From Fidelibacterota bacterium (GTDB lineage: Bacteria; Fidelibacterota; Marinisomatia; Marinisomatales; UBA1611): 32,547 nucleotides of DNA. The notes under the pieces are model-generated. The model was not told the DNA's origin. It did not search any database and worked only from the letters and a program-made list of their open reading frames with translations. Position numbers and translations under genes: made by a program. The stretch covers positions 1 to 32,547 of the forward strand of contig JAYPLH010000001.1 in assembly GCA_038365355.1 (NCBI GenBank), read 5' to 3'. Of this stretch, positions 128-29,222 are shown piece after piece (within the stretch, counting starts at the first letter, position 1; every line of letters begins with the position of its first letter).

Positions 128-1207
128 TCATTTCAAATAGGATACTTTTCTAATTTTAGAATGATTTTTATTTTTGATCTGAAAAAAATAGGTTCCAGAA
201 GAAACTTCTTTCCCATTTGATCTTTTTCCATTCCAAGAAATATGCTTAATGTCTTTATCAATAAAAAAACTTTTTGAAGACATTACTTTTTCTCCTTTTA
301 TATCAAAAATAGAATATTCTACTACGCCCGATTCCCTGCTGTTAATAGGTAAAACTACATTATTATTAAAAGGATTTGGAAATGGTGATCCAATAGAAAA
401 AGTCTTTGGTAAGGGGTCTAATTGAACTGTGAGTGGATCCCCATTATATCCTGTGTTGGTTGAATTAGTAAGACACAAAATTAAATAGCCATATTCAAAA
501 ACAACATTTGAATAAATAAGATCACAATTATTACCATCCCATGTATGATTTGCCTTATCCCATCGGGATGCATCATAATAATCAAAATCATCTGTCCACA
601 TTAAAATGAAATCATTATCTGTACCCGCATTACCTGAATTGGGAACATAAGCATAGTATTTTACCCAATCATAAAATGCATAAACTGGTAAAATACTAGA
701 GTCAAACTCACCAACCCAATCTTCATATGTGGGCTGCCAAATATTCATCATGAGCTTTTGGTAGTGATACAACGAATCTGTATAAAAATTAGCTACAGAT
801 CGAATCAACTGGTCATCAATAAAAAAATGAACATTTAAGGGAGTCCATTCAATTGCATAGATATGAAAATCTTCATGAGGATTAATATTTAAATCAACAA
901 GTTCTGGCAAATCCCACTCATTTTGAATTATAAGATTAGTTTGGACTTTATCATCATAGTTACCCAACCACTCAAAATCAATTTCATTCCAATAGCTATT
1001 ATCAAGCCCATCTTCCCAAAAGTCATTATAGGTAAAAAAAGAACTAACCACTCCATTTCCAAAAGCAGATTTCATTCGTACTTCCAATCTCCCATATCGA
1101 AAAGAATCTTCGGTTCTTAACTCTCCTCCCTTGTAGGGCTTAGAAAAAATCAAAGTAGAAAAAAAGATAAGAAATAAAAGTTTATTTAAGCAAAATTGTT
1201 TTTTCAT
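128..1207 (-). CDS. Secreted GH16 beta-glucanase, circularly permuted lichenase type, with T9SS C-terminal sorting domain
   Basis: 359-aa ORF with signal peptide MKKQFCLNKLLFLIFFSTLIFS. It has the non-bulged GH16 catalytic motif E-I-D-F-E in WNEIDFEWLG. The lichenase blocks YGRLEVRMKSA / VSSFFTY / YAIEWTP / MMNIWQP / YAFYDWVKYY are followed, not preceded, by FILMWTDDFD..SRW..GYLILCLT. In Bacillus lichenases that last segment is N-terminal. The C-terminus PFPNPFNNN...SGTYFFQI...VSYLK is a type-A T9SS CTD. Confidence 0.85.
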   Translation of the reverse strand: MKKQFCLNKLLFLIFFSTLIFSKPYKGGELRTEDSFRYGRLEVRMKSAFGNGVVSSFFTYNDFWEDGLDNSYWNEIDFEWLGNYDDKVQTNLIIQNEWDLPELVDLNINPHEDFHIYAIEWTPLNVHFFIDDQLIRSVANFYTDSLYHYQKLMMNIWQPTYEDWVGEFDSSILPVYAFYDWVKYYAYVPNSGNAGTDNDFILMWTDDFDYYDASRWDKANHTWDGNNCDLIYSNVVFEYGYLILCLTNSTNTGYNGDPLTVQLDPLPKTFSIGSPFPNPFNNNVVLPINSRESGVVEYSIFDIKGEKVMSSKSFFIDKDIKHISWNGKRSNGKEVSSGTYFFQIKNKNHSKIRKVSYLK

Positions 1208-2987
1208 ATTCGTTCTTGTTATTGATGTTTAGTTGAATGAAATAGATCCCACTTGCAGCTTTTTTTGCATTCCATGTTAGATTATGATATCCAGGTAAAA
1301 GTGAGCCGCTATATATGTTTTTTATTCGCTGACCATTGATATTAAATACATCGATTTCAACATAGGATTTCCTAACCAGTTCTATAGGAATGGAAAGTTG
1401 ATTATTAAACGGATTTGGAAAAGGTTTGGATAATAAATAATCTTTGGGATGATTTGAATTAATTGAAAGCTCTTCAAGGAGATGAATCTCTAATCCGTTC
1501 AAAAAAGGACCTGCGTATTCGTAACCTGCTCCATAGTTTACAGCAGAAAAATATAAATCGAGTATACCATCTTCAACCCTTATTGCATTTAGCATTGTAT
1601 CGAACGCAGTATGTATGTTGGACTGGCTGAACACGTCTAAATTTGATATCCATAAAGAATCTTCAGCAAAAACATCAAAAGATCGAACACCTATTTCATT
1701 GTAATGATTTTCTGAAAGTTTTAATACTGCTGAATATATACCTTTCGGCACTCGCACTTTGTAAGACACAACCCTATTCAAACTAGTTTGATAGATAGTT
1801 TCTTCAAGTGTATTGCCAATAGTTTCCTCTGTAATTTGGTAATTCCCATTCATATGTCCATATTCAACAGAGGAAGACCACAGTTGATCTGGCAAAAAAT
1901 CATTATACTCTTCACCTGCAACATTTACTTTTAACGGAAAAGAAATTGGATCAGGCATATCCAATGAAACAGATTGAGTTACTTGGGTGTTGGGAGGATC
2001 TGCATCATCCTTTATACCTATGATGTATAAAGTATACGTCTCAGTTAAGATCATGTCAGACACATGTAAATGAACTGTACGCTGATTATCCATCAAGACT
2101 GCTGAATTTATAGTAACTCCTGGGATAGTATAACTGCCTACATTTTGTGAAGTTTCTGGATCTAATTCTTCGCTAAACTGCACAATGATTGAGTCAGCCT
2201 CTGCTCTTGCCCATAACAAATGGGGTTTTTCTTGATCTTGATATCCAATATTTTCATCATCTGTAAGGCAAAGTATAAGCTGGCCATTATCAAAAATAGC
2301 ATTTTCTTCAATAAAAAGAGCCTGATTCCCTCCCCAGGTATGATTATCGCTTATTTCCCATCGACTAACATCTAATGCATCGAAATCATCTTGCCATTGA
2401 AAAGTAAAATTATTATCGGTTCCGGTATCTCCATTACCAGGAGTATAGGAGGCATATCGAACCCAATCATAAAATGCAAACCTTGGAAGGACTCTATCAT
2501 CCCAGATACCAACCCAGTCTTCATATGTTGGATTCCAAATATTCATCATAATTTTTGCTGGATGTATTAAGTCTGCTATGTGATTTGCTGTTTGGCGGTA
2601 GACTTCCTCTCCATTAATAAACCAGGCAACATAATCTGGAGTCCATTCAAAACCATATACATAAAAATCTAAATGAGTATCCATAGATAGATAATGAGTT
2701 CTAAGGTGACTTGTTGTTGTAATGACATTCATGTCTACAATATTTGGGAATCTGCCTAAAATTTCCACATCAACCTCAACCCAGCTAGTGTTGGGGAAGT
2801 CATCATTATAGACAAAAAAAGAAGAAACTAAACCCTCCCCCTGAGCAGGCTTATAACGGGCTTCAAATTTTCCATACAAAACCGGCTCTAAAGTTCTCAG
2901 TTCAGCTCCTCGATAAAATTGTGAGTATGCAAAACAACTAGATAAAACAAGGATAGTTAAAACTTTACTAATTAAATGTTTTTCCAT
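1182..2987 (-). CDS. Secreted multidomain GH16 beta-glucanase (circularly permuted lichenase type) + Ig-like module + malectin-like (CBM57-type) module + T9SS CTD
   Basis: 601-aa ORF with signal peptide MEKHLISKVLTILVLSSCFAYS. The catalytic motif is E-V-D-V-E in WVEVDVEILG. YGKFEARYKPA, VSSFFVY, YGFEWTPDYVAW, MMNIWNP and FAFYDWVRY are followed by FTFQWQDDFDALDVSRW...GQLILCLT, closely echoing the Fibrobacter succinogenes lichenase order as I recall it. The middle has an SbsA/Big-like segment (SYTIPGVTINSAVL...YTLYIIGIKD). A malectin-like pattern follows (VNVAGEEY..DQLW..YG...IYQTSLNR..YKVRVPKGIYSAVLKLSE...GVRSFDVF...LNGLEIH). The C-terminus is PFPNPFNNQLSIPI...SGIYFIQL...ILLK. Confidence 0.85.
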   Translation of the reverse strand: MEKHLISKVLTILVLSSCFAYSQFYRGAELRTLEPVLYGKFEARYKPAQGEGLVSSFFVYNDDFPNTSWVEVDVEILGRFPNIVDMNVITTTSHLRTHYLSMDTHLDFYVYGFEWTPDYVAWFINGEEVYRQTANHIADLIHPAKIMMNIWNPTYEDWVGIWDDRVLPRFAFYDWVRYASYTPGNGDTGTDNNFTFQWQDDFDALDVSRWEISDNHTWGGNQALFIEENAIFDNGQLILCLTDDENIGYQDQEKPHLLWARAEADSIIVQFSEELDPETSQNVGSYTIPGVTINSAVLMDNQRTVHLHVSDMILTETYTLYIIGIKDDADPPNTQVTQSVSLDMPDPISFPLKVNVAGEEYNDFLPDQLWSSSVEYGHMNGNYQITEETIGNTLEETIYQTSLNRVVSYKVRVPKGIYSAVLKLSENHYNEIGVRSFDVFAEDSLWISNLDVFSQSNIHTAFDTMLNAIRVEDGILDLYFSAVNYGAGYEYAGPFLNGLEIHLLEELSINSNHPKDYLLSKPFPNPFNNQLSIPIELVRKSYVEIDVFNINGQRIKNIYSGSLLPGYHNLTWNAKKAASGIYFIQLNINNKNEYEKTILLK

Positions 2988-4434
2988 AATTCAATTTATT
3001 ATCAGAAGTAATGATAGGGAAAGATGGAACTATAATTGGATAAGGTACTCCCCTCTGTATTACCATCATATCTGTCTGTGTTAATTTAATCTTTTCAAAA
3101 GCATCCATATTTATTTGAATTTTATCAGAATACCTTTCTTGTAAGGAATCTATCTTGGGATTCATAAAATTAAGCCATGCATCCTGATTTTCTATTTCTT
3201 TGGTCTTCTTCCTTAATGAAGATAAATAGGTTTTGCTTTTATGCACATCTTTCCACATTTCTTCATAGGCCTTAACATTCCAACGGTTATTGTAGCCTTT
3301 TTTATAGCTTGTCTTTGTGATCTCCATATCTCGCATTAAATCTGCTATGGCATATCGAAGCTGCTCAGGAAACTCATTTCGTTTCATTTTACGTTTTCTA
3401 AACACATATGGATGTGATTGTAATTGTTGATTTAACTTTTTAATTGACCATGGACTACCTTCATAATCAAAGATAATTTCATCTTCGCTTAGTTTATTCT
3501 CTTTATAAGAAAAACTGTTGTTATCAATCTCCGGATCATCCCATAGAACTTGATTAAACATTTGTTTCTTGGCTGAATCCATTTTGAAAAAGTAATCTGC
3601 TGCGTGCTCCGCATATTTATAAAAAATCTCTGAATTAAAGTTAATCTTTTTATTAGACATTAATTCTTCTACCCATGATAAATATTCTTTTTTTGCTTTA
3701 TTTTCGGTCAATTTTTCGTCAATATCTTTCCATAATAGATTTTGATCAGAGCTAGTAATAGGTACACTTTCAGTCCAACTATTGATTTTTAACAAAACAT
3801 GTGTGTTTTCATCTGTAAGAAATGGACCCAACAAATCTCCTTTTTTTACATTAGTTGCAAAAACTGCTTTATGGATATAGTCCTGCTCACGATCAAACCA
3901 TCCAATCTCTTTATTTGGTGCTTTTCCACCCCAAATAACGCTATGGATTGAATCAAAAGGAACTCCTTGCCTGTCTAATTCTTGTACTTTCTTTGCTATG
4001 CTTTCGTCAGGAAGATTTAAAAATTGAAGATTAACTCTTCTGCTAGCTAATTTTAGATTACTCTGTACTTTATCAGGAGGTATGTTTACTTTCGAAAAAT
4101 ATTCATCAAAGTACAACATCTGCCTCATTGCCTGCTCTCTTCTGCCTTTAAAATATTTTTCTGAATCTTCAGATTGAAATTTAGAATTTTGTTTTTCAAA
4201 CTCAAGTGAAGTCAATTTCTCTGCAATTAATGAATTCAAAACAATTTTTTTGTGAATATAATTATCTTGTCTACAATAATCTGGACGTATAGTATACTCT
4301 GATCTTCTGATAAAATCTTGAATTGTTATTATTTTCTCACCAACTCGAGCAAGAATTACTTCCTCAGGAACAGAGGGCTTTTTAGCACAGCTAAGAAAGA
4401 GGAATAAAATAAAAAGAAAGTAAGTGAATCTCAT
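2968..4434 (-). CDS. Lipoprotein of unknown function, SurA/PpiD-like chaperone suspected (degenerate parvulin-like segment)
   Basis: 488-aa ORF with lipobox FLFLSC followed by AKK. The N-terminus VILARVGEKIITIQDFIRR resembles SurA_N-type chaperones. GGKAPNKEIGWFD...KKGDLLGPFLTDENTHVLLKI resembles a degenerate parvulin core. There is a 9-nt gap to the upstream gene and a 20-nt overlap with the downstream GH16 gene. Confidence 0.5.
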   Translation of the reverse strand: MRFTYFLFILFLFLSCAKKPSVPEEVILARVGEKIITIQDFIRRSEYTIRPDYCRQDNYIHKKIVLNSLIAEKLTSLEFEKQNSKFQSEDSEKYFKGRREQAMRQMLYFDEYFSKVNIPPDKVQSNLKLASRRVNLQFLNLPDESIAKKVQELDRQGVPFDSIHSVIWGGKAPNKEIGWFDREQDYIHKAVFATNVKKGDLLGPFLTDENTHVLLKINSWTESVPITSSDQNLLWKDIDEKLTENKAKKEYLSWVEELMSNKKINFNSEIFYKYAEHAADYFFKMDSAKKQMFNQVLWDDPEIDNNSFSYKENKLSEDEIIFDYEGSPWSIKKLNQQLQSHPYVFRKRKMKRNEFPEQLRYAIADLMRDMEITKTSYKKGYNNRWNVKAYEEMWKDVHKSKTYLSSLRKKTKEIENQDAWLNFMNPKIDSLQERYSDKIQINMDAFEKIKLTQTDMMVIQRGVPYPIIVPSFPIITSDNKLNYGKTFN

Positions 4435-4443
4435 TACATATCA

Positions 4444-5514
4444 TTAGAAAGAAACACCAACTGTATACATTTGAACGTTACCTAAAATACCCATAGGTTT
4501 ATACGTGTAATCAATAGAAAGTGATTTATTTGCTAAATAAAACATTTTTGCACCAATACCAAATGTGATGCTAAAGTCATTTCCATCACTATTAATACTT
4601 TTCATACCATTTTTAGCGCCAGAGGTAAGACTCACCTGCCCAAAACCAGGAATTTTATAATCCAAAGCAGCTCCAATATTCACCGATTCAGCATTATTAT
4701 TGGGATGTAATGCATCCGCAGATATAGTAAGGTTCATCATATTTGATACAATTGGCTTTAAAGCAAATCCAATTCTAAAAATCAAAGGTAATTCCCATTC
4801 AGAAGTTCTAAACTGTCCTGCTACATCTCCATAATTACCCTCTTCAAATTCAGAAATATCTATAGGCTGATAGCTATCAATACCATCATATTGCATTCTA
4901 GTGCCATAATTCGATATGCTCATACCTATATTCATTCCGTCTTTATCATTACCCGTAAAAGAAAAAAACTTTGTATTTACTAAAACCCCTAAATCAACAG
5001 CAAAAGCACTTGCGGAGCTATGCCAAATATTAGAGCTTATATATTTCATGGATGAACCAAAAGAAAACCATGAAACAATTTTTCTGGAAAACGTGAAGGT
5101 AGCAGCCATATCAGATGCTCCAAACCTCTCACCAGTTCCATCTTGATATTCCAAATTGGTAACGTCCATCTCTCCATAATCTAAATGAGTAATACCTAGT
5201 CCTAGCACGCCTACATTGGGTACCACTACGGCACCACCTGCAAACAACATGTCAATATCCACCAACCAAGGTTGAACCATGAACAATGCTGAAGAGTTGG
5301 AGACATTTGAAAGTCCAGCAGGATTCCAATATATGGATGAAACATCATTTGCAACAGCCACATATGCATCTCCCATGGAGGTAGCCCGGCTTCCAACACC
5401 TATTTCTAAAAAGTTGGCAGCCGTTGTTCCATAACGATTAATCGTTTGTCCAAATACATTCGAACAAATTAAACTAATCATTATCAAGATAGATTTAGGT
5501 AGGTTAAACATCAT
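4444..5514 (-). CDS. Outer-membrane beta-barrel protein, PorV/PorQ-like
   Basis: 356-aa ORF with signal peptide ending NVFGQ. The N-terminal motif GTTAANFLEIGVGSRATSMGDAYVAVANDVSSIYWNPAGL matches the pattern I associate with PorV/PorQ-family (FadL-superfamily) barrels. It shows an alternating hydrophobic beta-strand pattern and a C-terminal aromatic residue (YTVGVSF). Its start overlaps the upstream stop as ATGA. Confidence 0.55.
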   Translation of the reverse strand: MMFNLPKSILIMISLICSNVFGQTINRYGTTAANFLEIGVGSRATSMGDAYVAVANDVSSIYWNPAGLSNVSNSSALFMVQPWLVDIDMLFAGGAVVVPNVGVLGLGITHLDYGEMDVTNLEYQDGTGERFGASDMAATFTFSRKIVSWFSFGSSMKYISSNIWHSSASAFAVDLGVLVNTKFFSFTGNDKDGMNIGMSISNYGTRMQYDGIDSYQPIDISEFEEGNYGDVAGQFRTSEWELPLIFRIGFALKPIVSNMMNLTISADALHPNNNAESVNIGAALDYKIPGFGQVSLTSGAKNGMKSINSDGNDFSITFGIGAKMFYLANKSLSIDYTYKPMGILGNVQMYTVGVSF

Positions 5515-8500
5515 TTAATTATTGCAAATTTTCCAAGTTTTTCTTCACCAATATCCAAAGCATCTATATGATAAACATACATACCAGCTGCAACTTCTAA
5601 ATTTTCCCTAGTCAACATATCCCAATGAATAATGCCATTACTTGGTTCATTATTAACAATTATTTCATCTACCAAGACACCACTTACAGTAAAGATCTTA
5701 ATAATACAGTTTGCAGGTATGTGAGTAAACATAATTTTTCTACGTTGATTTAAAAAAGGGTTCGAGACGGCTGACTCCATCATATTGGTCATTACATACG
5801 GATTGGGTACAACCCTTATACTATCTAAATCAGATTGAACAATAGATAAATCTAAAGCATTCTCTTGTTCTACAGAAAAACGAATTGTATCTGTAAGAAA
5901 ATAAGGTCTATTATAATCAACTTGATAAGAAGACTCTGATGAAGGGTAATTTGCTCCAGAATCAAGCTGAAAATCCATGATAAATGCTGTTGCTCGCCAC
6001 CTTGATCCCACCGTTGCCCCAACAAAGAACCTATCTACTCCTATATCCACAATATCGTTATCATTTACATCCTGAACAACAACATCCATAATAGGATGTT
6101 GGCCAGTAGAGGTATCTATAAACGACATGTTTTGAACAAAAAAGTTTACTGCTGGTTGAGTTATTTTATTTGAACCAATGGATGTACCATTTTCATCCCT
6201 GATAGTACCTGAACGAGCAATACCGACATATGCAGAATCATCATCCGTAAAGGTTATATTGTATTTCCATGAAAGTTGTAAACCTTCTGTAACCGTAGGA
6301 GTGATTCTCATTGTACCAGCGCCAGTAATCCATCCAGATTTTTCATAATTCAAAGATGAAGCTTCCACCTCTTCGGGCTCGATTTCTAATTGTAATCCAT
6401 CAAAAATATCCGTTAAAATTTCTTCTGAATTGTTTAATACCCAATAATTAGCAGTATCTTTAAAAACTATGTTCTGACCTACATATTTTGACGAATCTTC
6501 AGAATAAATCAGGACAGTACTATCTGTTTCATCAAAAATTTGAATTCCATTAGTTACATATTGGAATCCATAATCATAACCACTTATACTTGCTATTGTA
6601 TCTGCTAGAAAAGTAAGAGCATACTGATGACCTTGTTTTAATGCCCCCTGAGCTCTTATAAGAGGCTCCACAGATCCCGTGCCAAGTAATTCTGTTTCTT
6701 CAATAGTGACTTCAGGTGGAACGTAACCAGCTGCTCTTGGATGAGGAACAACAACTGCTACATTTTTTCCAATAGAGCGAATTTCTTCAGCTTCATCAAG
6801 TTCTATCACCGCATTATTTTCTGAAGGCGCAATTCCTGGACCAATGTTGGGTGCACCAAAATCATATGCCACTACTGCATAATAATACGTTCTACCATTT
6901 TGAACTGTATTATCAACAAAAATATGAGTAATTCCTGTTTCTCCTCCTAAATTGTATCCAGCCCCATTAACTAAGCCAAAATCTGTAAAGCCAGAAATAC
7001 CATCTACTAAATCACATTGATATATAGGCTTTTTAAACATAGGTGTTCCATATCCATCTGTGATAATTTCTGGATCAGACATATATTTATCCGTTGATCG
7101 ATAAACCTTATATCCTTCAAAGTCGTTTATATTTCCAACAAATGGATCCCTAGTTTTTGTGTCTGCGATGTCATCCCATGTTAAAATAACTTTACCATCT
7201 CCAGCAGTTGCAGTTAGTGTAGGCATTTTGGGAGGTTGAGCAAATCGGTAATCTTTTTCGTAAATAACTTGTACAATTCTTTTTAATTCATATAATGCAG
7301 GGGCTGTATGTTCATCCGAGCTCAGCCCTTCTAGTGGATCGTAAGAATGCAATTCAGACATAGATATTCTCTCTACCCTACCTTGATAAAGAGGGAAAGG
7401 CCCTGAAGCAAAAACCTCCACTAAGTTGGATACATTATCAAGATATTCTTCCAAGGAGTCAACACCAATCAGACCCCACATAGCTTCATCGTTTTTAAAC
7501 CAGGTTGTTTCATTAGAAGGGGCATGACTTGGAATTGGAAACATACGAAAAGTAGTTAAACCTACCATATCAGATTCTGAAACATCTGTAGTATTAAAAT
7601 TAGGTTCGCAACCAACACCCTCAAGGAAATCTGGTTTATGGTTACCTTCACTACCATCTAAATCAGGTCCAGTATAATTTAATTCACCAGGAGCAACACC
7701 GTCGATGCCAATATCATCTCCATAATTTTCTGAAATCTGATAAATCCCATCACCATTAGCATCTTCTCCATCTTCCCAATCTTGATCTTCATCTGCATCC
7801 CAATGTTCTTTTAAATCCTCAACATTTAATTTATAAAATTCTAAAAAAGCATTTAAATCATTGATACCATCGGTTGGTCCAATTAAAGCAGTTGCTTCAT
7901 TATCCCTCTTTTCATCAACCAAACCATCATTATCATTATCTTGAAAATCATAGGCTAATCCAGGACTTTCTAAATATGCAAATCCCATTACTCCTGTAGG
8001 AAGTCCGCCGGCTCCCACTCCATTTATATCCCAGGAGTAAGCCATATCCTCTTGCTTATTAAAATAGCCGAGGTCGTCATCACCATCTCCACCAATTGAG
8101 TTATCTAGCCAATATCCAAAAGCGACATCCCTAAGGTCATAATCTGATACATTTGCAATAGAGTATTCCCAAAAAATAGCATCTCTTGCTTGAGGATTAT
8201 TCCATTGAAAACCTCTTACTGAAACACGTAATCCTAATCCTCCCCATGGAGCACCTGGTTGAATCGTCACATCCGGTTTTAAATCTCCAATGTAATGCCC
8301 TGGTCTAGGGTAGTATTTGACATTATCCTCTGATCCAAGATACTCTTGATCCTGAGCATCATTTACCACATAATATGATTCTTGATCAGCGTAAGTAACA
8401 CCCCTGCCAAATCTTCCGTTCCACTCTCCTGGCCATTTGGTAGCAAGTCCTGTTGAAGGCCAACCATTTACTGGCCACGAATTGGGTATGTTTGATAAGG

Positions 8501-8984
8501 CAGGATATTCGCCTGTTTCATCAAAATATCCAAACACTGGGTAGAATCCCCATTCTACAGTTCCAGTAGGATCTAAATCCATCTCTTCACGGTAACTAGT
8601 TTGAAGGTAATATAGTGTATGCCTTTCATTATTTGGATTAAGTAATTCAGGTAATTCCGTAATTGGGATAGTATCGACAGTCGAAGGATCACCATCATCT
8701 TCAATATAAACTTTTGCACCAATTAATAGGCCAATACCATCTGTCATTTTCAAACCATCAGGATTATTAGGCCATTTTGATACATTTACTCTAGGCCAGT
8801 CTGAAAGTTCAGTTGTATTTCTAAAATAGATAAAAACTCTATTTCCTGTCATATACCCCTCTTTTTCAGCAGCAATGTCTCCAGCTGGATCCTCTGGACC
8901 TTCATAAGGTTTACCCTGAGAAAAAATAGTATCTACAAAAAGGGTAAGCAGAAAAAGAAATGTAAAAGTGGTTTTTATATTCAT
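5511..8984 (-). CDS. Large secreted protein of unknown function with Asp-rich Ca-binding-type repeats, FN3-like module and divergent T9SS-type CTD
   Basis: 1157-aa ORF with signal peptide MNIKTTFTFLFLLTLFVDTIFSQ. It has thrombospondin-type-3-like Asp runs (DNDNDGLVDEKRDNE, DADEDQDWEDGEDANGDGIY). It has an FN3-like segment (GDGKVILTWDD...FEGYKVYRS...NGRTYYYAVVAYD). The last ~100 aa are VVPNPY...IKIFTVSGVLV...IHWDMLTRENLEVAAGMYVYHIDA...GKFAIIK. I recognised no catalytic motif. The start overlaps the TonB-dependent receptor stop as TAATG. Confidence 0.7.
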   Translation of the reverse strand: MNIKTTFTFLFLLTLFVDTIFSQGKPYEGPEDPAGDIAAEKEGYMTGNRVFIYFRNTTELSDWPRVNVSKWPNNPDGLKMTDGIGLLIGAKVYIEDDGDPSTVDTIPITELPELLNPNNERHTLYYLQTSYREEMDLDPTGTVEWGFYPVFGYFDETGEYPALSNIPNSWPVNGWPSTGLATKWPGEWNGRFGRGVTYADQESYYVVNDAQDQEYLGSEDNVKYYPRPGHYIGDLKPDVTIQPGAPWGGLGLRVSVRGFQWNNPQARDAIFWEYSIANVSDYDLRDVAFGYWLDNSIGGDGDDDLGYFNKQEDMAYSWDINGVGAGGLPTGVMGFAYLESPGLAYDFQDNDNDGLVDEKRDNEATALIGPTDGINDLNAFLEFYKLNVEDLKEHWDADEDQDWEDGEDANGDGIYQISENYGDDIGIDGVAPGELNYTGPDLDGSEGNHKPDFLEGVGCEPNFNTTDVSESDMVGLTTFRMFPIPSHAPSNETTWFKNDEAMWGLIGVDSLEEYLDNVSNLVEVFASGPFPLYQGRVERISMSELHSYDPLEGLSSDEHTAPALYELKRIVQVIYEKDYRFAQPPKMPTLTATAGDGKVILTWDDIADTKTRDPFVGNINDFEGYKVYRSTDKYMSDPEIITDGYGTPMFKKPIYQCDLVDGISGFTDFGLVNGAGYNLGGETGITHIFVDNTVQNGRTYYYAVVAYDFGAPNIGPGIAPSENNAVIELDEAEEIRSIGKNVAVVVPHPRAAGYVPPEVTIEETELLGTGSVEPLIRAQGALKQGHQYALTFLADTIASISGYDYGFQYVTNGIQIFDETDSTVLIYSEDSSKYVGQNIVFKDTANYWVLNNSEEILTDIFDGLQLEIEPEEVEASSLNYEKSGWITGAGTMRITPTVTEGLQLSWKYNITFTDDDSAYVGIARSGTIRDENGTSIGSNKITQPAVNFFVQNMSFIDTSTGQHPIMDVVVQDVNDNDIVDIGVDRFFVGATVGSRWRATAFIMDFQLDSGANYPSSESSYQVDYNRPYFLTDTIRFSVEQENALDLSIVQSDLDSIRVVPNPYVMTNMMESAVSNPFLNQRRKIMFTHIPANCIIKIFTVSGVLVDEIIVNNEPSNGIIHWDMLTRENLEVAAGMYVYHIDALDIGEEKLGKFAIIK

Positions 8985-11653
8985 TAAAAATTAATTCCTA
9001 GAGCTAGCTTTAATGATCTAGGAGATGAAAACATCGAAGGATTTTTAATGCGATCTTCAAATTCATTGAAGTCGCTTCTGTGCCCTGCATAGTCGGTTTC
9101 TCGAATAACTGCAGTATATGCTCGACCTGTTTCGCTATCCACCCCGTTCTCATTTAATCTATCTAATAAGTTGTAAATAGTTAAATCTAATTTTGCAGAA
9201 AACCTATCAAATAATTTAAAATTATAATAAAGAGCTGCATCAACTGTGTATGTCGATGGTTTATAATCATTGTTTGGATATAAATTAATTCTAGACAGGA
9301 CACTTTCACTTTGAGGTGAAAAAGTATAAGGAGAACCTGAATTATAATAAGCTGTTACGGTTCCTCCATATTTAGGTCCAAGCATCATCAGAGTCCCGTT
9401 AAGCGTATGCCTTTGATCCCAGCTCATAGGTATAAAACGATTCACTGGATCCATATTATTACCTGCTCTATCAAATGTCTGAGTTGGATTATCTGCATTG
9501 CCTCTTGTGTACTGCAATGTATAGTTCAGCATTCCTTTTAAGGATCCATATCCTAAATCTGCAGTAACCTCTAACCCTCGAACGTTGCCATAATCTTTAT
9601 TACTATACAAACCATATTCAATCTGGTTGTAGGTTGAAATGATTTTCGTGCTCAACAAATTATAGATATCTCGATAAAATAAAGCTACATCTAAATTCAC
9701 ACCTCGAGTTAATTCTTGCCATAAACCTATTTCATATGTAATGGTTTTCTCAGGTTCAAGAAGAACACTTCCCATCGTAGTTGAATAATCACTTGGGCCT
9801 ATGAGAAAGCTTTTATTTTGATACATTGAGTATAAAGGGGGCATTTGGAAAAAATGGCCATAACTAAAGTGGAGCACGGCTTGACCACCAAGTTGATATG
9901 CAAATCCCACTCTAGGACTTAATTGATCAATTACAGGTGCGTCTATTTGAGTAGACATCATGGAATCCGGCAATACCAGTTGGTTAGCTGGATTTCTACG
10001 ATCAGAGGGATAATAACTAGCTGGATCAAAATAATCATATCGTATACCAAAATTAATCACCATATTCTCGAATTCCATTTTATCCTGGATATATGCTGCT
10101 GCTTCTTTGGGCTTTACTTCAAAAATATCAGCATATACTGTTGAGTCACCAAAAACTTCAGGCTCATAAATACTTAAATCAGATTGCCCATCATATTTAT
10201 TTCTAATCATTTGCCATTTATGCTTCACATCATGAGAAATTCCCATTAATCCCAATTTAAAACTGTGATTATGATTGGCCTGCCAAGTAACATCAAACTT
10301 TATAGTTTGGTCTAAATCTCTATGCTTTGTATGTTCTTTTTGTTGGCCTCCTGTAAAAAATCCAGAGCCATAACTTTCTAAATATTTATCATGTACATAT
10401 CTTGTATCTAGAGAATCTTCATAAAGATAAGTTCCTGTCTTGTTTTTCATGTAAGCTATTTTCAGCTCATAAAAAAACTTTGGAGTTATCATGTGATTTA
10501 CTTGAAACGCTGAGTAAAAAGTATTCTTGTGGCTTCCTACTCTACCATCGGGGTTATACTTCATAGAGTGATCATACCAATACCAAGTATCATCGCTGTA
10601 GGAATTTAGAAGTGAAAAACGTACTCCTTTGATAAAATTAAACCCAATTTTTAATAGTGCAGATGTATTATCACCCGTATTCATAGGTACGTAGGATCGG
10701 TCTCCAGATTTAGATGAATTCCATTCCAAAGGATTATCGGAATAGAAATCACTGCTATCTGTAACCGTGAAAAGGCGATAACCATTCAGGTGGCCTCTAT
10801 TATTTTGCTTTCGAAAATTTGTGAAGAAGGTAACTTTATCTCCTATAACAGGACCACCAAGACTAAATTTCAAATCTTCACTTCGATTGAGGCTAGGAGA
10901 TAATCCAATAAATACATCATCACCATTACTATCAGTACTATTCGTAAAAAAAGATGATGATGCTCCAGATATTGAACCTTCAAATTTAGGACCTCCATCA
11001 CGGGTGACCATGTTTACTACTCCACTCATAGCTCGTCCATATTCAGCATTAAACGTACCTGTAATCACCTCCAAATCTTGAACGGCCTCAGGCTGTACAT
11101 CAACCGCTGCACTCCCACCACCATAAGATTCATCTACCTGTACTCCATCTATCATATAAGTAACTTCTGTATTTCTTCCTCCACGAAAATGGCCATTTAC
11201 CACTCCTGCCTGCATATTAATTACATTCCCAATATTTTCTACAGGTAGAGCATCTATTTCCTCACTTGAGATATTTTTAATGGTGCCGGTCTGATCTTTT
11301 TTTTGAGTTAACCTAGATACTTCAACGGTAACAACCTCGCCTTCAATCACAGTAGACTCCATTTCAATATCAAGAGATGTTGTCCTGTTTACGGAAACTA
11401 TAAGCTCGTCTAATTGAACTGATTTATATCCTATCATGTCTACTTTCAAAGTGTATTTACCTGGAGGAATATTTATAATAGTAAATCTTCCTTCTCCATC
11501 AGAAGCAGTACCATAGGCAGAATTAATTATGTAAATATTCGCACCTGGAAGGGCGTCTTTTTTATCTTTGTCCACTACAACACCAGAAATTTTTCCAGTA
11601 GTTTGAGCGAATAAAAATGAAAGTAAGAAAAGTAAGCCTAAGATTTTTTTCAT
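8984..11653 (-). CDS. TonB-dependent outer-membrane receptor with N-terminal carboxypeptidase-regulatory-like domain (no adjacent SusD)
   Basis: 889-aa ORF with signal peptide MKKILGLLFLLSFLFAQ. It has a CarboxypepD_reg-like segment (GKISGVVVDKDKKDALPGANIYII...GRFTIINIPPGKYTLKVDMIGYKS). A TonB-box-like EVVTVEV is followed by a plug (EEIDALPVENIGNVINMQAGV...FRGGRNTEVTYMIDGVQV). A long beta-barrel ends in the terminal Phe of LALGINF. Confidence 0.9.
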   Translation of the reverse strand: MKKILGLLFLLSFLFAQTTGKISGVVVDKDKKDALPGANIYIINSAYGTASDGEGRFTIINIPPGKYTLKVDMIGYKSVQLDELIVSVNRTTSLDIEMESTVIEGEVVTVEVSRLTQKKDQTGTIKNISSEEIDALPVENIGNVINMQAGVVNGHFRGGRNTEVTYMIDGVQVDESYGGGSAAVDVQPEAVQDLEVITGTFNAEYGRAMSGVVNMVTRDGGPKFEGSISGASSSFFTNSTDSNGDDVFIGLSPSLNRSEDLKFSLGGPVIGDKVTFFTNFRKQNNRGHLNGYRLFTVTDSSDFYSDNPLEWNSSKSGDRSYVPMNTGDNTSALLKIGFNFIKGVRFSLLNSYSDDTWYWYDHSMKYNPDGRVGSHKNTFYSAFQVNHMITPKFFYELKIAYMKNKTGTYLYEDSLDTRYVHDKYLESYGSGFFTGGQQKEHTKHRDLDQTIKFDVTWQANHNHSFKLGLMGISHDVKHKWQMIRNKYDGQSDLSIYEPEVFGDSTVYADIFEVKPKEAAAYIQDKMEFENMVINFGIRYDYFDPASYYPSDRRNPANQLVLPDSMMSTQIDAPVIDQLSPRVGFAYQLGGQAVLHFSYGHFFQMPPLYSMYQNKSFLIGPSDYSTTMGSVLLEPEKTITYEIGLWQELTRGVNLDVALFYRDIYNLLSTKIISTYNQIEYGLYSNKDYGNVRGLEVTADLGYGSLKGMLNYTLQYTRGNADNPTQTFDRAGNNMDPVNRFIPMSWDQRHTLNGTLMMLGPKYGGTVTAYYNSGSPYTFSPQSESVLSRINLYPNNDYKPSTYTVDAALYYNFKLFDRFSAKLDLTIYNLLDRLNENGVDSETGRAYTAVIRETDYAGHRSDFNEFEDRIKNPSMFSSPRSLKLALGINF

Positions 11654-11716: not shown

Positions 11717-11752
11717 AAAAAAGGATGGGCAGTTTAAACTGCCCATCCTTTT
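11717..11752 (-). terminator. Rho-independent terminator of the 1176-aa gene
   Basis: On the minus strand the sequence is AAAAGGATGGGCAG-TTTAAA-CTGCCCATCC-TTTTTT. The stem is a perfect 10 bp (11723-11732 pairing with 11739-11748) with a 6-nt loop and a T6 tail. It begins 12 nt after the TAA stop at 11764-11766. Confidence 0.75.
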
Positions 11753-15533: not shown

Positions 15534-16523
15534 GTGCGTACAACATTAAAACAAGTAGCAGACGATACTGGATTATCCATTGCCACAGTTTCTAGGGCTC
15601 TACGCCGAGATAAGAGAAGATATTCCAAAAATGAAGAGAAAATCTATGCTTCAGCTAGGAAATTAGGATATCCTTTTATTGGAGAACTGAACAATGAAGA
15701 GCAATTAACAATCGCTCTTGTCACAGAAGTACATCAGGGTGAGTTTTACTCGTCTTTATTTAACGGCTTTTACAATTCAAGTAAAAACTCTGAGTCCGAT
15801 ATTGTTTTTGTAAATCTTGCAAAACATAGCGATGATCCTGTTCAGCATATTATAAATCTCAGTAAAAAATACAGTGGAATATGTCTTTTCTTACCTAATT
15901 TAGAAAAAATTGACTACAAACGAATACGGCAAGGAGTTGGGAAATATCCAATTATTTCTCTTACGCCAATGAAAAACCCTACTATTGATACGGTCTCATT
16001 TGACTCTTACAGCGGTGGATATATGATTGCAAAACACTTTGAAGAGCAAGGATATAAAAATTTTGGTATTGTTTCCGGTCCTGGAGATGCTGTAGATGCA
16101 GTTTTCCGTAAGAATGGTTTCGTAGACCACATCAGTGAAAAAGAAGATTTAAAACTTGTCTGGGAATATAAGGGTGATTTTAGCAGTGAATCTGGAAGAG
16201 ATGCCTTTAATGACTATAAAAAGAAAAACATTCCTAACATGGCAATTTTTGGATGCAATGACCACACTTGTTTTGGCTTTATGAAGGGAGCCTTAGAAGC
16301 AGGTTACAAAATTCCTAAAGATTTTATAATTGCTGGTTACGATAATCTATCCTTTTGTGACAATTTTACTCCAGAGCTGACTTCCGTTGCAACCAACTTT
16401 GACATCCTAGGGAAAAGAGCAATCCGAACGATTGAAAACATGGTAAACGATAGTAATGAAATAATTCGACAATTTTCAATGGTCCCTGTTGAAATAGTTA
16501 TCAGATCCAGCACACAGAACTAG
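15534..16523 (+). CDS. LacI-family transcriptional regulator
   Basis: 329-aa ORF with a GTG start. The N-terminal HTH is TLKQVADDTGLSIATVSRALRR. The periplasmic-binding-protein-like sugar-sensor core includes GYKNFGIVSGP, AIFGCNDHTCFG and IIAGYDN. Confidence 0.9.
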   Translation: MRTTLKQVADDTGLSIATVSRALRRDKRRYSKNEEKIYASARKLGYPFIGELNNEEQLTIALVTEVHQGEFYSSLFNGFYNSSKNSESDIVFVNLAKHSDDPVQHIINLSKKYSGICLFLPNLEKIDYKRIRQGVGKYPIISLTPMKNPTIDTVSFDSYSGGYMIAKHFEEQGYKNFGIVSGPGDAVDAVFRKNGFVDHISEKEDLKLVWEYKGDFSSESGRDAFNDYKKKNIPNMAIFGCNDHTCFGFMKGALEAGYKIPKDFIIAGYDNLSFCDNFTPELTSVATNFDILGKRAIRTIENMVNDSNEIIRQFSMVPVEIVIRSSTQN

Positions 16524-16544
16524 CGTATAAATATTTAAATTACT

Positions 16545-17840: not shown

Positions 17841-17843
17841 AAA

Positions 17844-24425: not shown

Positions 24426-24437
24426 GAGAAGATTCGA

Positions 24438-25781: not shown

Positions 25782-25799
25782 AAAAAACGAACTATATAA

Positions 25800-29207: not shown

Positions 29208-29222
29208 ATTGGAACGCCCAAT

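What the first reader, a model, noticed from the sequence alone, without database searches (positions are those of the whole stretch)
2968..11653. SusD-less outer-membrane module: TonB-dependent receptor + 1157-aa unknown CTD protein + PorV/PorQ-like barrel + SurA-like lipoprotein
Seen in the sequence:
- Four genes are packed head-to-tail.
- The junctions are TAATG (8982-8986), ATGA (5511-5514) and a 9-nt gap.
- They run directly into two secreted GH16 genes.
- The receptor has the CarboxypepD_reg-plug-barrel layout of SusC-like transporters.
- No SusD-like gene follows it.

The next gene instead encodes a 1157-aa signal-peptide protein with no catalytic motif I recognise. After that comes a barrel whose N-terminal motif matches PorV/PorQ-type T9SS components.

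Established knowledge:
- PorV binds T9SS cargo CTDs.
- PorP/SprF-like barrels are often encoded next to the specific cargo they anchor.

Inference: the PorV-like barrel could tether the 1157-aa protein at the surface beside the receptor. That would be a functional replacement for SusD/SGBP, with the lipoprotein acting as an assembly chaperone. As far as I know, such a glycan-capture module has not been characterised.
Basis: partly seen in the sequence, partly recalled or inferred. Interest (0 to 1): 0.78.

Follow-up and report, generated by a model that had tools for sequence, protein, structure and literature searches.

The report
SusD-less glycan-uptake cassette with PorV-like barrel
A marine SAR406 (Marinimicrobia) laminarin locus carries a tightly linked gene set (an outer-membrane importer, a large unannotated secreted protein, a dedicated PorV-like barrel and a SurA-like lipoprotein) that recurs across several phyla related to Bacteroidota and probably does the job SusC/SusD does in Bacteroidota, though this has not been tested experimentally.

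Summary
**Observation: confirmed.** Four minus-strand genes (2968-11653) are joined by TAATG, ATGA and a 9-nt gap, then overlap two T9SS-secreted GH16 genes.

**What the genes are**
- A TonB-dependent transporter (TBDT) that is not SusC-family.
- An 1157-aa secreted protein ("BIG") with no Pfam or NCBIfam family and a divergent T9SS C-terminal domain (CTD).
- A PorV/PorQ-family barrel that is neither canonical PorV nor PorQ.
- A lipoprotein with a SurA/PrsA fold, not a SusD fold.

**Context.** The surrounding locus targets beta-1,3-glucan: GH16, GH30, GH1, GH149 phosphorylase, an ABC importer and LacI.

**Conservation**
- The order TBDT-BIG-PorV-like holds in 62/65 and 65/70 testable loci from Marinimicrobia, KSB1, Calditrichota (including cultured Caldithrix abyssi), Ignavibacteriota, Chlorobiota and Rhodothermales.
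- Paralogous cassettes in one genome each carry their own barrel.
- Cassettes sit beside varied CAZymes (GH3, GH5, GH9, GH16, GH43, GH92).
- The lipoprotein is a frequent accessory (43/63).
- BIG's family has about 3,340 clusters at 50% identity.

**Reading.** This is a PUL-like uptake cassette in which BIG is probably tethered through its CTD to the cognate barrel (as PorZ is to PorQ) and serves the transporter. The tether and the SusD-like role are inferred, not shown. I found no published description.

The parts
8984..11653 (-). TonB-dependent transporter, 889 aa. Layout: signal peptide, CarboxypepD_reg-like N-terminal extension, a TonB-box-like segment EGEVVTVEV (read by eye), plug, then 22-strand-type barrel. 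Not SusC family.
   Evidence: - Pfam: CarbopepD_reg_2, Plug, TonB_dep_Rec_b-barrel and OMP_b-brl_4 all score above their cutoffs.
- TIGR04056 (SusC/RagA) scores 60.3 bits against a cutoff of 368, and only over residues 21-220.
- It lies directly upstream of BIG in 62/65 loci.
5511..8984 (-). 'BIG': an 1157-aa secreted protein of an unannotated family. Layout: signal peptide 1-22 (Gln at +1), conserved N-core about 121-345, acidic DxDxDG-type loop region 346-475, FN3-like domain 586-720, poorly conserved beta-rich region 721-1050, divergent T9SS CTD 1051-1157.
   Evidence: - No Pfam family; the only NCBIfam hit is the PorZ C-terminus (E=9e-5).
- 3,340 clusters at 50% identity have E<=1e-3.
- Conservation by region was computed.
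- AF2 gives pLDDT 58.5 overall. Residues 725-1157 are confident and the N-terminal half is not.
5514..5834 (-). C-terminal domain of BIG (residues 1051-1157). It is a beta-sandwich sorting/anchoring domain with VVPNPY, an insertion of about 20 aa, and a ...GKFAIIK end.
   Evidence: - Across 20 family members, hits are FlgD_ig 13/20, CHU_C 10/20 and Por_Secre_tail 8/20.
- The family profile hits the PorU CTD (E=0.005) and the PorZ CTD (E=0.033) in PDB.
- Top Foldseek hits are PorZ 5m11 and PorU 6za2.
- It ties with the FN3-like domain as the most conserved region of the protein (0.58).
- It is the only BIG region with a positive partial correlation to barrel divergence (r=0.155, p=0.01).
5835..6824 (-). 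Variable beta-rich region of BIG (residues 721-1050). Candidate substrate-specific module.
   Evidence: - Lowest conservation of any region (0.32).
- Confidently modelled as beta-strands.
- Absent from the 708-aa short family member in L062.
7560..7949 (-). Acidic loop region of BIG (residues 346-475), with invariant D349/D351/D353/G354/D357/E358, D424/G426/D428/G429 and E460/D467/E470/D472. Probably calcium-binding (inferred).
   Evidence: - Invariant columns in a 25-sequence alignment of diverse members.
- 29% of residues are D or E, and the motif DNDNDGLVD is present.
- No regular secondary structure in the AF2 model.
4444..5514 (-). Cassette-specific PorV/PorQ-family outer-membrane barrel, 356 aa.
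   Evidence: - NF033709 scores 198.6 against a cutoff of 90, over the full length.
- The PorV equivalog (91.6 vs 250), the PorQ equivalog (93.9 vs 220) and Toluene_X (20.2 vs 29.7) all fall below their cutoffs.
- It matches PDB 6h3i_F PorV at E=1.2e-10.
- It is adjacent to BIG in 65/70 loci.
- Paralogous cassettes in one genome each have their own copy.
2968..4434 (-). SurA/PrsA-like lipoprotein, 488 aa (lipobox LSC, Cys16). It has a chaperone module plus a degenerate parvulin-like domain at about 132-222. A frequent accessory of the cassette.
   Evidence: - Cys16 is invariant in 54 homologues.
- AF2 gives pLDDT 79.5.
- Foldseek hits SurA (E=9e-6), LIC12922, PrsA, PEB4 and CBF2, each at probability 0.97-1.0.
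- Rotamase_2 reaches only 17.3 bits against a cutoff of 27.
- It is present downstream in 43/63 loci and adjacent to the barrel in 32/63.
1182..2987 (-). GH16 beta-glucanase with malectin domain and T9SS type A CTD. Same transcription unit.
   Evidence: Pfam and NCBIfam; 20-nt overlap with the lipoprotein gene.
128..1207 (-). GH16 beta-glucanase with T9SS type A CTD.
   Evidence: Pfam and NCBIfam.
11719..11752 (-). Intrinsic terminator hairpin (GGATGGGCAG-TTTAAA-CTGCCCATCC followed by T6). It lies between the CBM9 gene and the transporter gene and is followed by a TATAAT-rich leader.
   Evidence: A perfect 34-nt palindrome, read on the minus strand.
11764..15294 (-). 1176-aa CBM4_9 + CBM9 protein with T9SS type A CTD. 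Likely a surface glycan binder, and often conserved upstream of the cassette.
   Evidence: Pfam and NCBIfam; homologues lie upstream of the TBDT in many loci and in Caldithrix abyssi.
15534..31049 (+). Divergent beta-glucan catabolic arm. It encodes a LacI regulator, GH16+PA14, an SBP_bac_5 ABC importer, GH1, GH30, a GH149 beta-1,3-glucan phosphorylase and GH5.
   Evidence: Pfam; NF058639 GH149 scores 1450 bits against a cutoff of 1150.

Best explanation
This is a conserved outer-membrane glycan-uptake cassette. It resembles a PUL in function but lacks SusC/SusD. It is used by non-Bacteroidia members of the FCB group, and here belongs to a Marinimicrobia (SAR406) laminarin locus.

**Shown**
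- A non-SusC TonB-dependent transporter, an 1157-aa secreted protein of an unannotated family (BIG) and a dedicated PorV/PorQ-family barrel are translationally coupled.
- The three are inherited as a unit across at least five phyla.
- They diverge together, and whole cassettes are duplicated within single genomes.
- They sit next to varied CAZyme sets.
- A SurA/PrsA-fold lipoprotein frequently follows them.

**Inferred**
1. BIG crosses the inner membrane by Sec and the outer membrane by the T9SS, using its divergent C-terminal domain.
2. That domain is not removed. It stays bound to the cognate PorV-like barrel, as the CTDs of PorZ and PorU stay bound to PorQ and PorV. This fixes BIG on the cell surface.
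3. Anchored next to the transporter, BIG captures oligosaccharides through its variable beta-rich region and hands them to the TonB-dependent transporter. Here these would be beta-1,3-glucan fragments released by the co-transcribed T9SS-secreted GH16 enzymes. BIG may also cap the transporter. This is the role SusD/SGBPs play in Bacteroidota.
4. The lipoprotein acts as a periplasmic holdase/foldase for one or more of these large outer-membrane or secreted components.
5. Imported oligosaccharides are then taken up by the SBP_bac_5 ABC system and degraded by GH1, GH30 and GH149, under LacI control.
For: **Identity of the parts**
- The locus substrate is set by GH16, GH30, GH1 and GH149.

**Coupled junctions**
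- Read directly.

**Synteny**
- The TBDT is directly upstream in 62/65 loci. The PorV-like gene is directly downstream in 65/70 (69/70 within 5 kb). The lipoprotein is downstream in 43/63.
- The same cassette occurs in cultured Caldithrix abyssi.

**Co-divergence**
- Pairwise-identity matrices correlate at r=0.87-0.95 over 55 loci.
- Paralogous cassettes in one genome carry their own diverged TBDT/BIG/barrel: 57/59/55% identity in one genome and 36/38/40% in another.

**Not tied to one glycan**
- Neighbours of non-GH16 cassettes include GH3, GH92, GH9, GH43, GH2, GH5, CBM9 and many T9SS cargo proteins.

**CTD and barrel**
- BIG's CTD scores best against the PorZ and PorU CTDs, which are the two CTDs known to be retained on PorQ and PorV (review PMC10202324).
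- A 708-aa short family member in L062 keeps the N-terminal motif, the FN3-like domain and this CTD type, but lacks the acidic loops and the variable region. It again sits between a TBDT and a PorV-like gene.
- The CTD is the only BIG region with a positive partial Mantel correlation to barrel divergence after controlling for the TBDT (r=0.155, p=0.010).

**Modularity**
- Conserved and variable regions fit a constant scaffold plus a variable module.
Against: - No direct evidence exists for surface location, CTD retention, glycan binding, or contact between BIG and the transporter.
- The AF2 model of BIG's conserved N-terminal half is unreliable (pLDDT below 50 for most of residues 1-720). Its fold and any binding site are unknown.
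- Foldseek matches have very low TM-scores (0.05-0.13). Similarity to PorZ is at domain level at most.
- The CTD's matches to PorU and PorZ are weak (E=0.005-0.03).
- The CTD of the ordinary cargo protein upstream is also well conserved, so CTD conservation alone does not single out BIG.
- The partial Mantel signal is small, and such tests are liberal when sequences are phylogenetically related.
- A CBM9/CBM4_9 CTD protein is encoded just upstream and could be the real glycan binder. That would leave BIG with another role.
- The 80 loci analysed are the closest relatives of the query, so generality across the whole family is extrapolated.
Confidence: 0.5

Rival explanations
1. The PorV-like barrel is only a dedicated secretion shuttle for BIG, comparable to SprF for SprB. 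After export, BIG is cleaved and then either released or LPS-anchored like ordinary T9SS cargo. It then acts as a free or loosely attached glycan binder rather than as a stable partner of the barrel and transporter.
For: - PorP/SprF-type barrels encoded next to their cargo are required for that cargo's secretion (PMC10202324).
- BIG's CTD gives weak hits to both type A and type B CTD models.
- Barrel adjacency fits this reading as well as it fits a tether.
Against: - The review describes PorP/SprF barrels as proposed surface anchors of their cargo whose type B CTDs are probably not cleaved, so this analogy points towards retention.
- The best CTD matches are to the retained CTDs of PorU and PorZ.
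- The strict three-gene linkage with a TBDT is not explained by a secretion-only role.
Confidence: 0.2
2. BIG is an unrecognised surface enzyme, such as a glycan-active hydrolase/lyase or a processing enzyme. Its invariant acidic residues would be catalytic or metal-binding. The transporter simply imports its products.
For: - Many invariant D/E residues and a strongly conserved core.
- No known binding module was detected.
Against: - The same conserved core sits beside very different CAZyme sets (GH16, GH3, GH9, GH92, GH43). One catalytic specificity is therefore unlikely.
- The acidic motifs look like DxDxDG calcium loops rather than a catalytic site.
- The loci already encode dedicated secreted enzymes.
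Confidence: 0.12
3. The module is a cell-surface adhesin or coat assembly unit: BIG plus an anchor barrel plus a chaperone. It would be used for attachment to particles or algae. Its position next to a transporter and CAZymes would reflect co-regulation rather than joint function.
For: - FN3-like and beta-sandwich domains and calcium-type loops are typical of adhesins.
- T9SS adhesins with cognate barrels are known, for example SprB with SprF.
Against: - TBDT-BIG-barrel adjacency, with overlapping stop and start codons, is kept across phyla and in paralogous cassettes.
- BIG regions co-diverge strongly with the TBDT.
Confidence: 0.1
4. The transporter works outward or as part of an export/assembly route for BIG, as proposed for the Oar TonB-dependent protein of Myxococcus. 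The SurA-like lipoprotein and the FadL-family barrel would form a private assembly device, loosely like BamG plus PPIase lipoproteins in the Bacteroidota BAM.
For: - The barrel region hits PF25183 OMP_b-brl_4, and the receptor has a CarboxypepD_reg N-terminus.
- Bacteroidota BAM contains a FadL-like barrel and PPIase lipoproteins (PMC12578637).
Against: - BIG carries its own T9SS-type CTD, and the locus holds four other T9SS cargo proteins.
- The barrel is PorV family, not FadL/BamG-like.
- The cassette always sits in catabolic CAZyme loci with inner-membrane sugar importers.
Confidence: 0.05

Closest known systems
SusC/SusD (RagA/RagB) pairs and 'utilisomes' of Bacteroidota polysaccharide utilization loci
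   Same: - An outer-membrane TonB-dependent importer with an NTE-plug-barrel layout.
- The importer gene is immediately followed by a gene for a surface accessory protein.
- The pair is embedded in a substrate-specific CAZyme locus with a regulator.
- The pair is multiplied as paralogous cassettes beside different CAZyme families.
   Different: - The transporter fails the SusC family model (60 vs 368 bits).
- The partner is not a TPR lipoprotein. It is an 1157-aa Sec/T9SS-type protein with a CTD.
- A third constant gene encodes a PorV-family barrel.
- Anchoring would be through a barrel-bound CTD rather than a lipid.
PorQ-PorZ and PorV-PorU pairs of the T9SS attachment complex
   Same: - A PorV/PorQ-family barrel is paired with a large beta-rich surface protein.
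- That protein's CTD is the closest match to BIG's CTD.
- In the known pairs the CTD is retained and holds the protein on the barrel (PMC10202324).
   Different: - The barrel is below the PorV and PorQ equivalog cutoffs.
- The pair occurs in several copies per genome, inside catabolic loci and next to a TBDT.
- BIG is not homologous to PorZ or PorU outside the CTD by sequence.
Type B CTD cargo with adjacent PorP/SprF-family barrels (for example SprB with SprF)
   Same: - The cargo gene and its cognate outer-membrane barrel gene are clustered.
- The barrel is proposed to anchor the cargo, whose CTD is not cleaved.
- BIG-family CTDs give weak CHU_C (type B) hits in 10/20 members.
   Different: - The barrel is PorV/PorQ family, not PorP/SprF.
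- The CTD lies between type A and type B.
- Linkage to a TonB-dependent transporter is not a feature of SprB/SprF.
BtuB-BtuG (Bacteroides vitamin B12 transporter with a surface-protein lid) and other TBDT-plus-surface-partner systems
   Same: A non-SusC TonB-dependent transporter works with a dedicated extracellular capture protein encoded beside it (PMC10404256 appeared in the search listing; its content is cited from my own knowledge).
   Different: - BtuG is a lipoprotein.
- No T9SS or PorV-like barrel is involved.
- The ligand is a vitamin, not a glycan.
TBDT-centred carbohydrate utilisation (CUT) loci of Proteobacteria
   Same: CAZyme loci with a TonB-dependent transporter and no SusD (my own knowledge).
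   Different: They have no constant BIG-like or PorV-like partner genes and no T9SS.

Membership tests
SusC/RagA TonB-linked outer membrane protein (TIGR04056) | Whole-protein score at or above the curated cutoff | tested here: not met
   60.3 bits against a cutoff of 368.25. Only residues 21-220 (NTE plus plug) align.
SusC/RagA TonB-linked outer membrane protein (TIGR04056) | CarboxypepD_reg-like N-terminal extension, plug and barrel layout | tested here: met
   CarbopepD_reg_2 at 22-110, Plug at 118-212, barrel at 338-829.
SusC/RagA TonB-linked outer membrane protein (TIGR04056) | A SusD/RagB gene immediately downstream | tested here: not met
   The downstream gene has no SusD-type Pfam hit, and no ORF in the window has one.
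TonB-dependent receptor (generic) | Plug and TonB_dep_Rec barrel domains above Pfam cutoffs | tested here: met
   Plug scores 40.2 vs 23.9; the barrel scores 96.3 vs 27. The TonB-box-like EGEVVTVEV was seen by eye only.
SusD/RagB | TPR-rich alpha-helical lipoprotein fold | tested here: not met
   The 488-aa lipoprotein matches SurA/PrsA folds. The confident part of BIG is all-beta. There are no SusD Pfam hits.
PorV/PorQ family (NF033709) | Score above the curated cutoff over the full model | tested here: met
   198.6 bits against a cutoff of 90, covering model positions 1-326 of 326. Pfam PorV scores 34 vs 27. PDB PorV 6h3i_F matches at E=1.2e-10.
Canonical PorV (NF033710) or PorQ (NF033711) | Equivalog cutoff reached | tested here: not met
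   PorV scores 91.6 vs 250; PorQ scores 93.9 vs 220; PorV2 scores 56.2 vs 325. Several cassette-linked copies occur per genome.
FadL/TodX (Toluene_X) | Pfam gathering score reached | tested here: not met
   20.2 bits against a cutoff of 29.7.
T9SS type A CTD (TIGR04183 / PF18962) on BIG | Model hit at the C-terminus | tested here: inconclusive
   - The window protein has no hit at E<=0.01.
- 8 of 20 family CTDs hit weakly.
- The fold is a beta-sandwich with pLDDT 80-90.
- The profile hits the PorU and PorZ CTDs.
T9SS type B CTD with PorP/SprF partner | CHU_C-type CTD and an adjacent PorP/SprF-family barrel | tested here: not met
   CHU_C hits are weak and occur in 10/20 members. The adjacent barrel is PorV family, not PorP/SprF.
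SurA/PrsA-type chaperone-PPIase | SurA-like chaperone module plus parvulin domain fold | tested here: met
   The AF2 model has pLDDT 79.5. Foldseek hits SurA, LIC12922, PrsA, PEB4 and CBF2 at E=9e-6 to 7e-3 with probability 0.97-1.0.
SurA/PrsA-type chaperone-PPIase | Sequence-level parvulin (Rotamase) match and PPIase activity | tested here: inconclusive
   Rotamase_2 scores 17.3 bits against a cutoff of 27. Enzymatic activity cannot be tested here.
Canonical PUL (Bacteroidota definition) | A susC/susD pair next to CAZymes | tested here: not met
   CAZymes and a regulator are present, but there is no SusC-family or SusD gene.

The most novel reading that the evidence does not exclude
TBDT, BIG and the PorV-like barrel form a stable two-barrel outer-membrane complex assembled by the T9SS. 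This would be a second, independent solution to what SusCD solves. It would be the main glycan-capture device of SAR406, Calditrichota, KSB1, Ignavibacteriota and relatives, and it is missed by every PUL predictor keyed on SusC/SusD.
Probability: 0.35. Interest if true: 0.85.

Novelty: new variant of a known kind. Interest (0 to 1): 0.74.

Why it matters
- **Ecology.** SAR406/Marinimicrobia are among the most abundant bacteria of the dark and low-oxygen ocean, and laminarin is a major marine carbon pool.
- **Detection gap.** PULs are currently recognised by SusC/SusD pairs, so loci of this type go unseen.
- **A usable marker.** A conserved TBDT-BIG-PorV-like cassette would allow glycan-uptake loci to be found in at least five FCB phyla.
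- **A large unannotated family.** It would give a first functional context to a protein family of about 3,340 clusters at 50% identity that has no Pfam or NCBIfam model.
- **A wider role for PorV paralogues.** Their role would extend from secretion and attachment to nutrient uptake.
- **Testability.** The cassette is present in cultured Caldithrix abyssi and, by MAG evidence, in Melioribacter roseus, so the idea can be tested experimentally.

Tried and rejected
**Structure and fold**
- AF2 on BIG with a 45-sequence alignment gave an unusable N-terminal half. Deeper alignments could not be submitted, and both AF2 jobs are now spent.
- Foldseek on that model returned PorZ, PorU and FN3 arrays, but with TM-scores of 0.05-0.13. 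I use it only at domain level.

**Sequence and profile searches**
- Searching PDB with BIG alone and with the family profile found only FN3 and CTD matches.
- Pfam scans of 25 diverse family members found nothing beyond weak CTD families.

**Tests that did not discriminate**
- I tested whether BIG's CTD is unusually conserved relative to an ordinary cargo CTD. It is not clearly so: 0.59 for BIG against 0.50 for the CBM9 protein, and the CBM9 CTD is also better conserved than the rest of its protein.

**Readings rejected**
- The FadL/TodX reading of the barrel was rejected on scores.
- The SusD reading of the 488-aa and 1157-aa proteins was rejected.

**Literature**
- Eight searches and six papers checked by term search found no description of the cassette. 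These included the Melioribacter and Caldithrix genome papers, a T9SS effector review and a 2026 review of bacterial glycoside transporters.
- The library holds open-access papers only, so a prior description elsewhere cannot be excluded.

**Technical failures**
- The look-up of Calab_3088 by exact sequence failed; a near-identical Caldithrix protein worked.


Full report
**1. What is in the window**

All long ORFs between 128 and 15294 are on the minus strand. The finding's four genes are:
- 8984-11653 (889 aa)
- 5511-8984 (1157 aa)
- 4444-5514 (356 aa)
- 2968-4434 (488 aa)

- TAATG, with stop and start sharing one base.
- ATGA.
- A 9-nt gap.

The 488-aa gene overlaps the next gene by 20 nt, and that gene overlaps the last by 26 nt. 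These last two genes encode GH16 beta-glucanases with signal peptides and T9SS type A C-terminal domains (CTDs). One of them also has a malectin domain.

Upstream lies a 1176-aa CBM4_9/CBM9 protein with a type A CTD (11764-15294). It is followed by a canonical hairpin plus T6 terminator at 11719-11752 and then a TATAAT-rich leader. The transporter-to-GH16 block is therefore probably its own transcription unit.

The divergent plus-strand arm encodes the following:
- a LacI regulator
- GH16+PA14
- an SBP_bac_5 ABC importer
- GH1
- GH30
- a 1135-aa protein that Pfam misses but NCBIfam identifies as a GH149 beta-1,3-glucan phosphorylase (1450 bits against a cutoff of 1150)
- GH5

The locus therefore targets laminarin-type beta-glucan. 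Close homologues are labelled Candidatus Neomarinimicrobiota/Marinimicrobia.

**2. The four proteins**

*Transporter.*
- CarbopepD_reg, Plug and TonB_dep_Rec barrel all score above their Pfam cutoffs.
- It is not a SusC-family member. TIGR04056 gives 60 bits against a cutoff of 368, and only over the N-terminal 200 residues.

*Barrel.*
- It is a full-length PorV/PorQ-family protein (NF033709, 198.6 vs 90).
- It is below the PorV, PorQ and PorV2 equivalog cutoffs, and below the FadL/Toluene_X cutoff.
- It matches the solved F. johnsoniae PorV (6h3i_F, E=1e-10).

*488-aa protein.*
- It has an invariant lipobox cysteine.
- Its AF2 model (pLDDT 79.5) matches SurA, Leptospira LIC12922, PrsA, PEB4 and CBF2 (Foldseek E=9e-6 to 7e-3, probability 0.97-1.0).
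- It is a SurA/PrsA-type chaperone with a degenerate parvulin domain, not a SusD-like TPR protein.

*1157-aa protein (BIG).*
- It has no Pfam family. Its only NCBIfam hit is the C-terminus of PorZ.
- Its family is very large: 3,340 clusters at 50% identity with E<=1e-3, of which 423 have E<=1e-30.
- A 25-sequence alignment of diverse members shows this layout:
  - a signal peptide followed by a conserved Gln
  - a conserved N-core
  - an acidic region (29% D+E) with invariant DxDxDG-type motifs
  - an FN3-like domain (NGRTYYYAVVAYD)
  - a poorly conserved beta-rich region (721-1050)
  - a strongly conserved C-terminal domain (VVPNPY...GKFAIIK)
- The AF2 model is confident only for residues 725-1157. 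Its best Foldseek hits are PorZ and PorU plus generic FN3 arrays, with low TM-scores.
- The family profile hits the CTDs of PorU (E=0.005) and PorZ (E=0.033) among all PDB sequences.
- CTDs of family members hit FlgD_ig, CHU_C and Por_Secre_tail only weakly. BIG therefore carries a divergent T9SS-type CTD.

**3. Is the arrangement conserved?**

The best 80 loci come from MAGs labelled Neomarinimicrobiota, KSB1, Calditrichota, Ignavibacteriota (including Melioribacter roseus), Chlorobiota, Rhodothermales and "Bacteroidetes".

Searching the six-frame ORFs of these loci with the window proteins gave the following:
- The TBDT is directly upstream of BIG in 62 of 65 loci with enough flank.
- The PorV-like gene is directly downstream in 65 of 70, and within 5 kb in 69 of 70.
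- The lipoprotein family is downstream in 43 of 63, and adjacent to the barrel in 32.

The core is therefore a triad, and the lipoprotein is a frequent accessory.

Further points:
- Cultured Caldithrix abyssi DSM 13497 has LacI, a CTD protein, a CBM9 protein, TBDT, BIG, PorV-like, a 515-aa protein, GH3, SSF and GH5 in that order.
- Pairwise-identity matrices of the three core proteins over 55 loci correlate at r=0.87-0.95.
- Two genomes with two cassettes each show that every cassette has its own diverged TBDT, BIG and barrel: 57/59/55% and 36/38/40% identity. The barrel is therefore cassette-specific, not the housekeeping PorV.
- Neighbours of cassettes that lack GH16 include GH3 (6), GH92 (3), GH9 with CBM30 (3), GH43, GH2, GH5, CBM9 (12) and many T9SS cargo proteins (18 of 74). 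The cassette is therefore generic, and the adjacent enzymes set the substrate.
- Variants exist:
  - Three tandem BIG paralogues precede one barrel gene in L022.
  - In L062, a 708-aa short member keeps the N-terminal motif, the FN3 and the BIG-type CTD, but lacks the acidic loops and the variable region. It again lies between a TBDT and a PorV-like gene.

**4. Mechanism**

Established T9SS knowledge, as summarised in PMC10202324:
- PorU and PorZ keep their CTDs, which hold them on PorV and PorQ.
- Type B cargo depends on PorP/SprF barrels encoded next to it.
- Cognate PorV-like barrels have been proposed to protect a CTD from cleavage.

The BIG/barrel pair fits this pattern:
- Its CTD is closest to those of PorU and PorZ.
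- Its barrel is private and adjacent.
- The CTD ties with the FN3-like domain as the most conserved part of BIG.
- The CTD is the only BIG region whose divergence keeps a positive partial correlation with barrel divergence once TBDT divergence is controlled for (partial Mantel r=0.155, p=0.010; other regions -0.14 to -0.03).

I treat that last result as suggestive only. The effect is small, and such tests are liberal for phylogenetically related sequences.

My preferred model is this:
1. BIG is exported by the T9SS.
2. It is held on the surface by its retained CTD bound to the cognate barrel.
3. It works with the adjacent transporter as a capture or lid protein for oligosaccharides cut by the co-transcribed GH16 enzymes.
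4. The variable region 721-1050 is the substrate-specific module.
5. The SurA-like lipoprotein assists folding or assembly. After Cys16 its sequence reads AKKPSVPEE, with no acidic run like the lipoprotein export signals described for Bacteroidota. This hints at a periplasmic location, but it is inference only.

Steps 1-5 are not shown by any data here.

**5. Caveats and rivals**

- The CBM9/CBM4_9 protein upstream is a conventional candidate for the glycan binder.
- An ordinary cargo CTD in the same loci is also well conserved, so conservation alone does not mark BIG's CTD as special.
- The fold of BIG's conserved N-terminal half is unknown.
- The rivals are: a barrel that acts only as a secretion shuttle; BIG as an enzyme; an adhesin module; and an Oar-like export or private assembly device.
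- For the last rival, compare the FadL-like BamG plus PPIase lipoproteins in Bacteroidota BAM (PMC12578637).
- The rivals are listed with their tests in the rival-explanations section.

**6. Comparison with known systems and novelty**

- Functionally the cassette resembles a SusC/SusD core. It fails the membership tests for SusC, SusD and a canonical PUL.
- It borrows the PorQ-PorZ / PorP-cargo logic of the T9SS, but sits in catabolic loci, in several copies, next to a TBDT.
- BIG's family has no Pfam or NCBIfam model.
- Eight literature searches and targeted reading found no description. This included the Melioribacter and Caldithrix genome papers, a T9SS effector review and a 2026 review of bacterial glycoside transporters, which never mentions PorV, type IX, Ignavibacteria, Fibrobacter or Calditrichota.
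- The library is open-access only, so a prior mention elsewhere cannot be excluded.
- I rate this a new variant of a known kind: TBDT-based glycan uptake with a surface partner, combined with a T9SS cognate-barrel tether.

**7. Verdict**

- The component assignments and the predicted co-occurrence are supported.
- The tether and the SusD-like role remain plausible but untested.
- Interest is high. The cassette is widespread in abundant, poorly understood phyla, is invisible to SusC/SusD-based PUL detection, and is testable in a cultured host.

Noticed in passing
window 25800-29207 (+): A 1135-aa protein with no Pfam hit is a GH149 beta-1,3-glucan phosphorylase by NCBIfam NF058639 (1450 bits against a cutoff of 1150). 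This fixes the locus substrate as laminarin-type glucan.
   Followed up: yes
window 11764-15294 (-), residues about 101-250 and 262-411: The CBM4_9/CBM9 CTD protein contains a tandem duplication of an unassigned 150-aa domain. The two copies are 87% identical. The gene's GC content (0.40-0.45) is well above the rest of the window (0.30-0.39). It may be an undescribed glucan-binding module or a recent acquisition.
   Followed up: partly
window 11719-11752: A perfect 34-nt palindrome forms a GC-rich hairpin followed by T6, directly after the CBM9 gene's stop codon. It is a likely intrinsic terminator that separates that gene from the transporter operon. The consensus terminator scan did not list it.
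   Followed up: partly
window 15424-15470: An inverted repeat, TGCAATCTTTTTTCA / TGAAAAAAATTTGCA, lies in the divergent region between the LacI gene and the CBM9 gene. It is a possible LacI-family operator.
   Followed up: no
window 17844-23077 (+): The inner-membrane importer of this glucan locus is an oligopeptide-type (SBP_bac_5) ABC system with a fused double ATPase (557 aa, two ABC_tran domains). It is not a typical sugar-type SBP_bac_1 system.
   Followed up: no
L022 282-12260; L025 3743-8974: A KSB1 MAG has three tandem BIG paralogues followed by a single PorV-like gene. A Calditrichota MAG has two tandem copies. Several BIG proteins may share one barrel.
   Followed up: partly
L062 11137-17268: This is a second cassette in a Chlorobiota MAG. 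It has a TBDT, then a 708-aa short BIG-family member, then a PorV-like gene. The short member keeps the N-terminal motif, the FN3-like domain and the BIG-type CTD, but lacks the acidic loops and the variable region.
   Followed up: yes
window: N-termini of the genes at 11653, 8984, 5514, 15294 and 2987 (minus strand): The predicted signal-peptide cleavage leaves Gln at +1 in the TBDT, BIG (Q23 is at least 90% conserved), the PorV-like barrel, the CBM9 protein and GH16a. This recalls the Gln/pyroglutamate rule described for Bacteroidota exported proteins (my own knowledge).
   Followed up: no
window 31171-32517 (-): This is a further T9SS cargo gene encoding a right-handed beta-helix, a lamin-tail domain and a type A CTD. 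It has a GTG start close to the window end, so its N-terminus may be miscalled.
   Followed up: no
L084 (Caldithrix abyssi DSM 13497, CM001402.1 3,990,687-4,014,205): A cultured organism carries the full cassette with GH3, SSF and GH5 neighbours and a LacI regulator. It is a practical host for experiments.
   Followed up: yes
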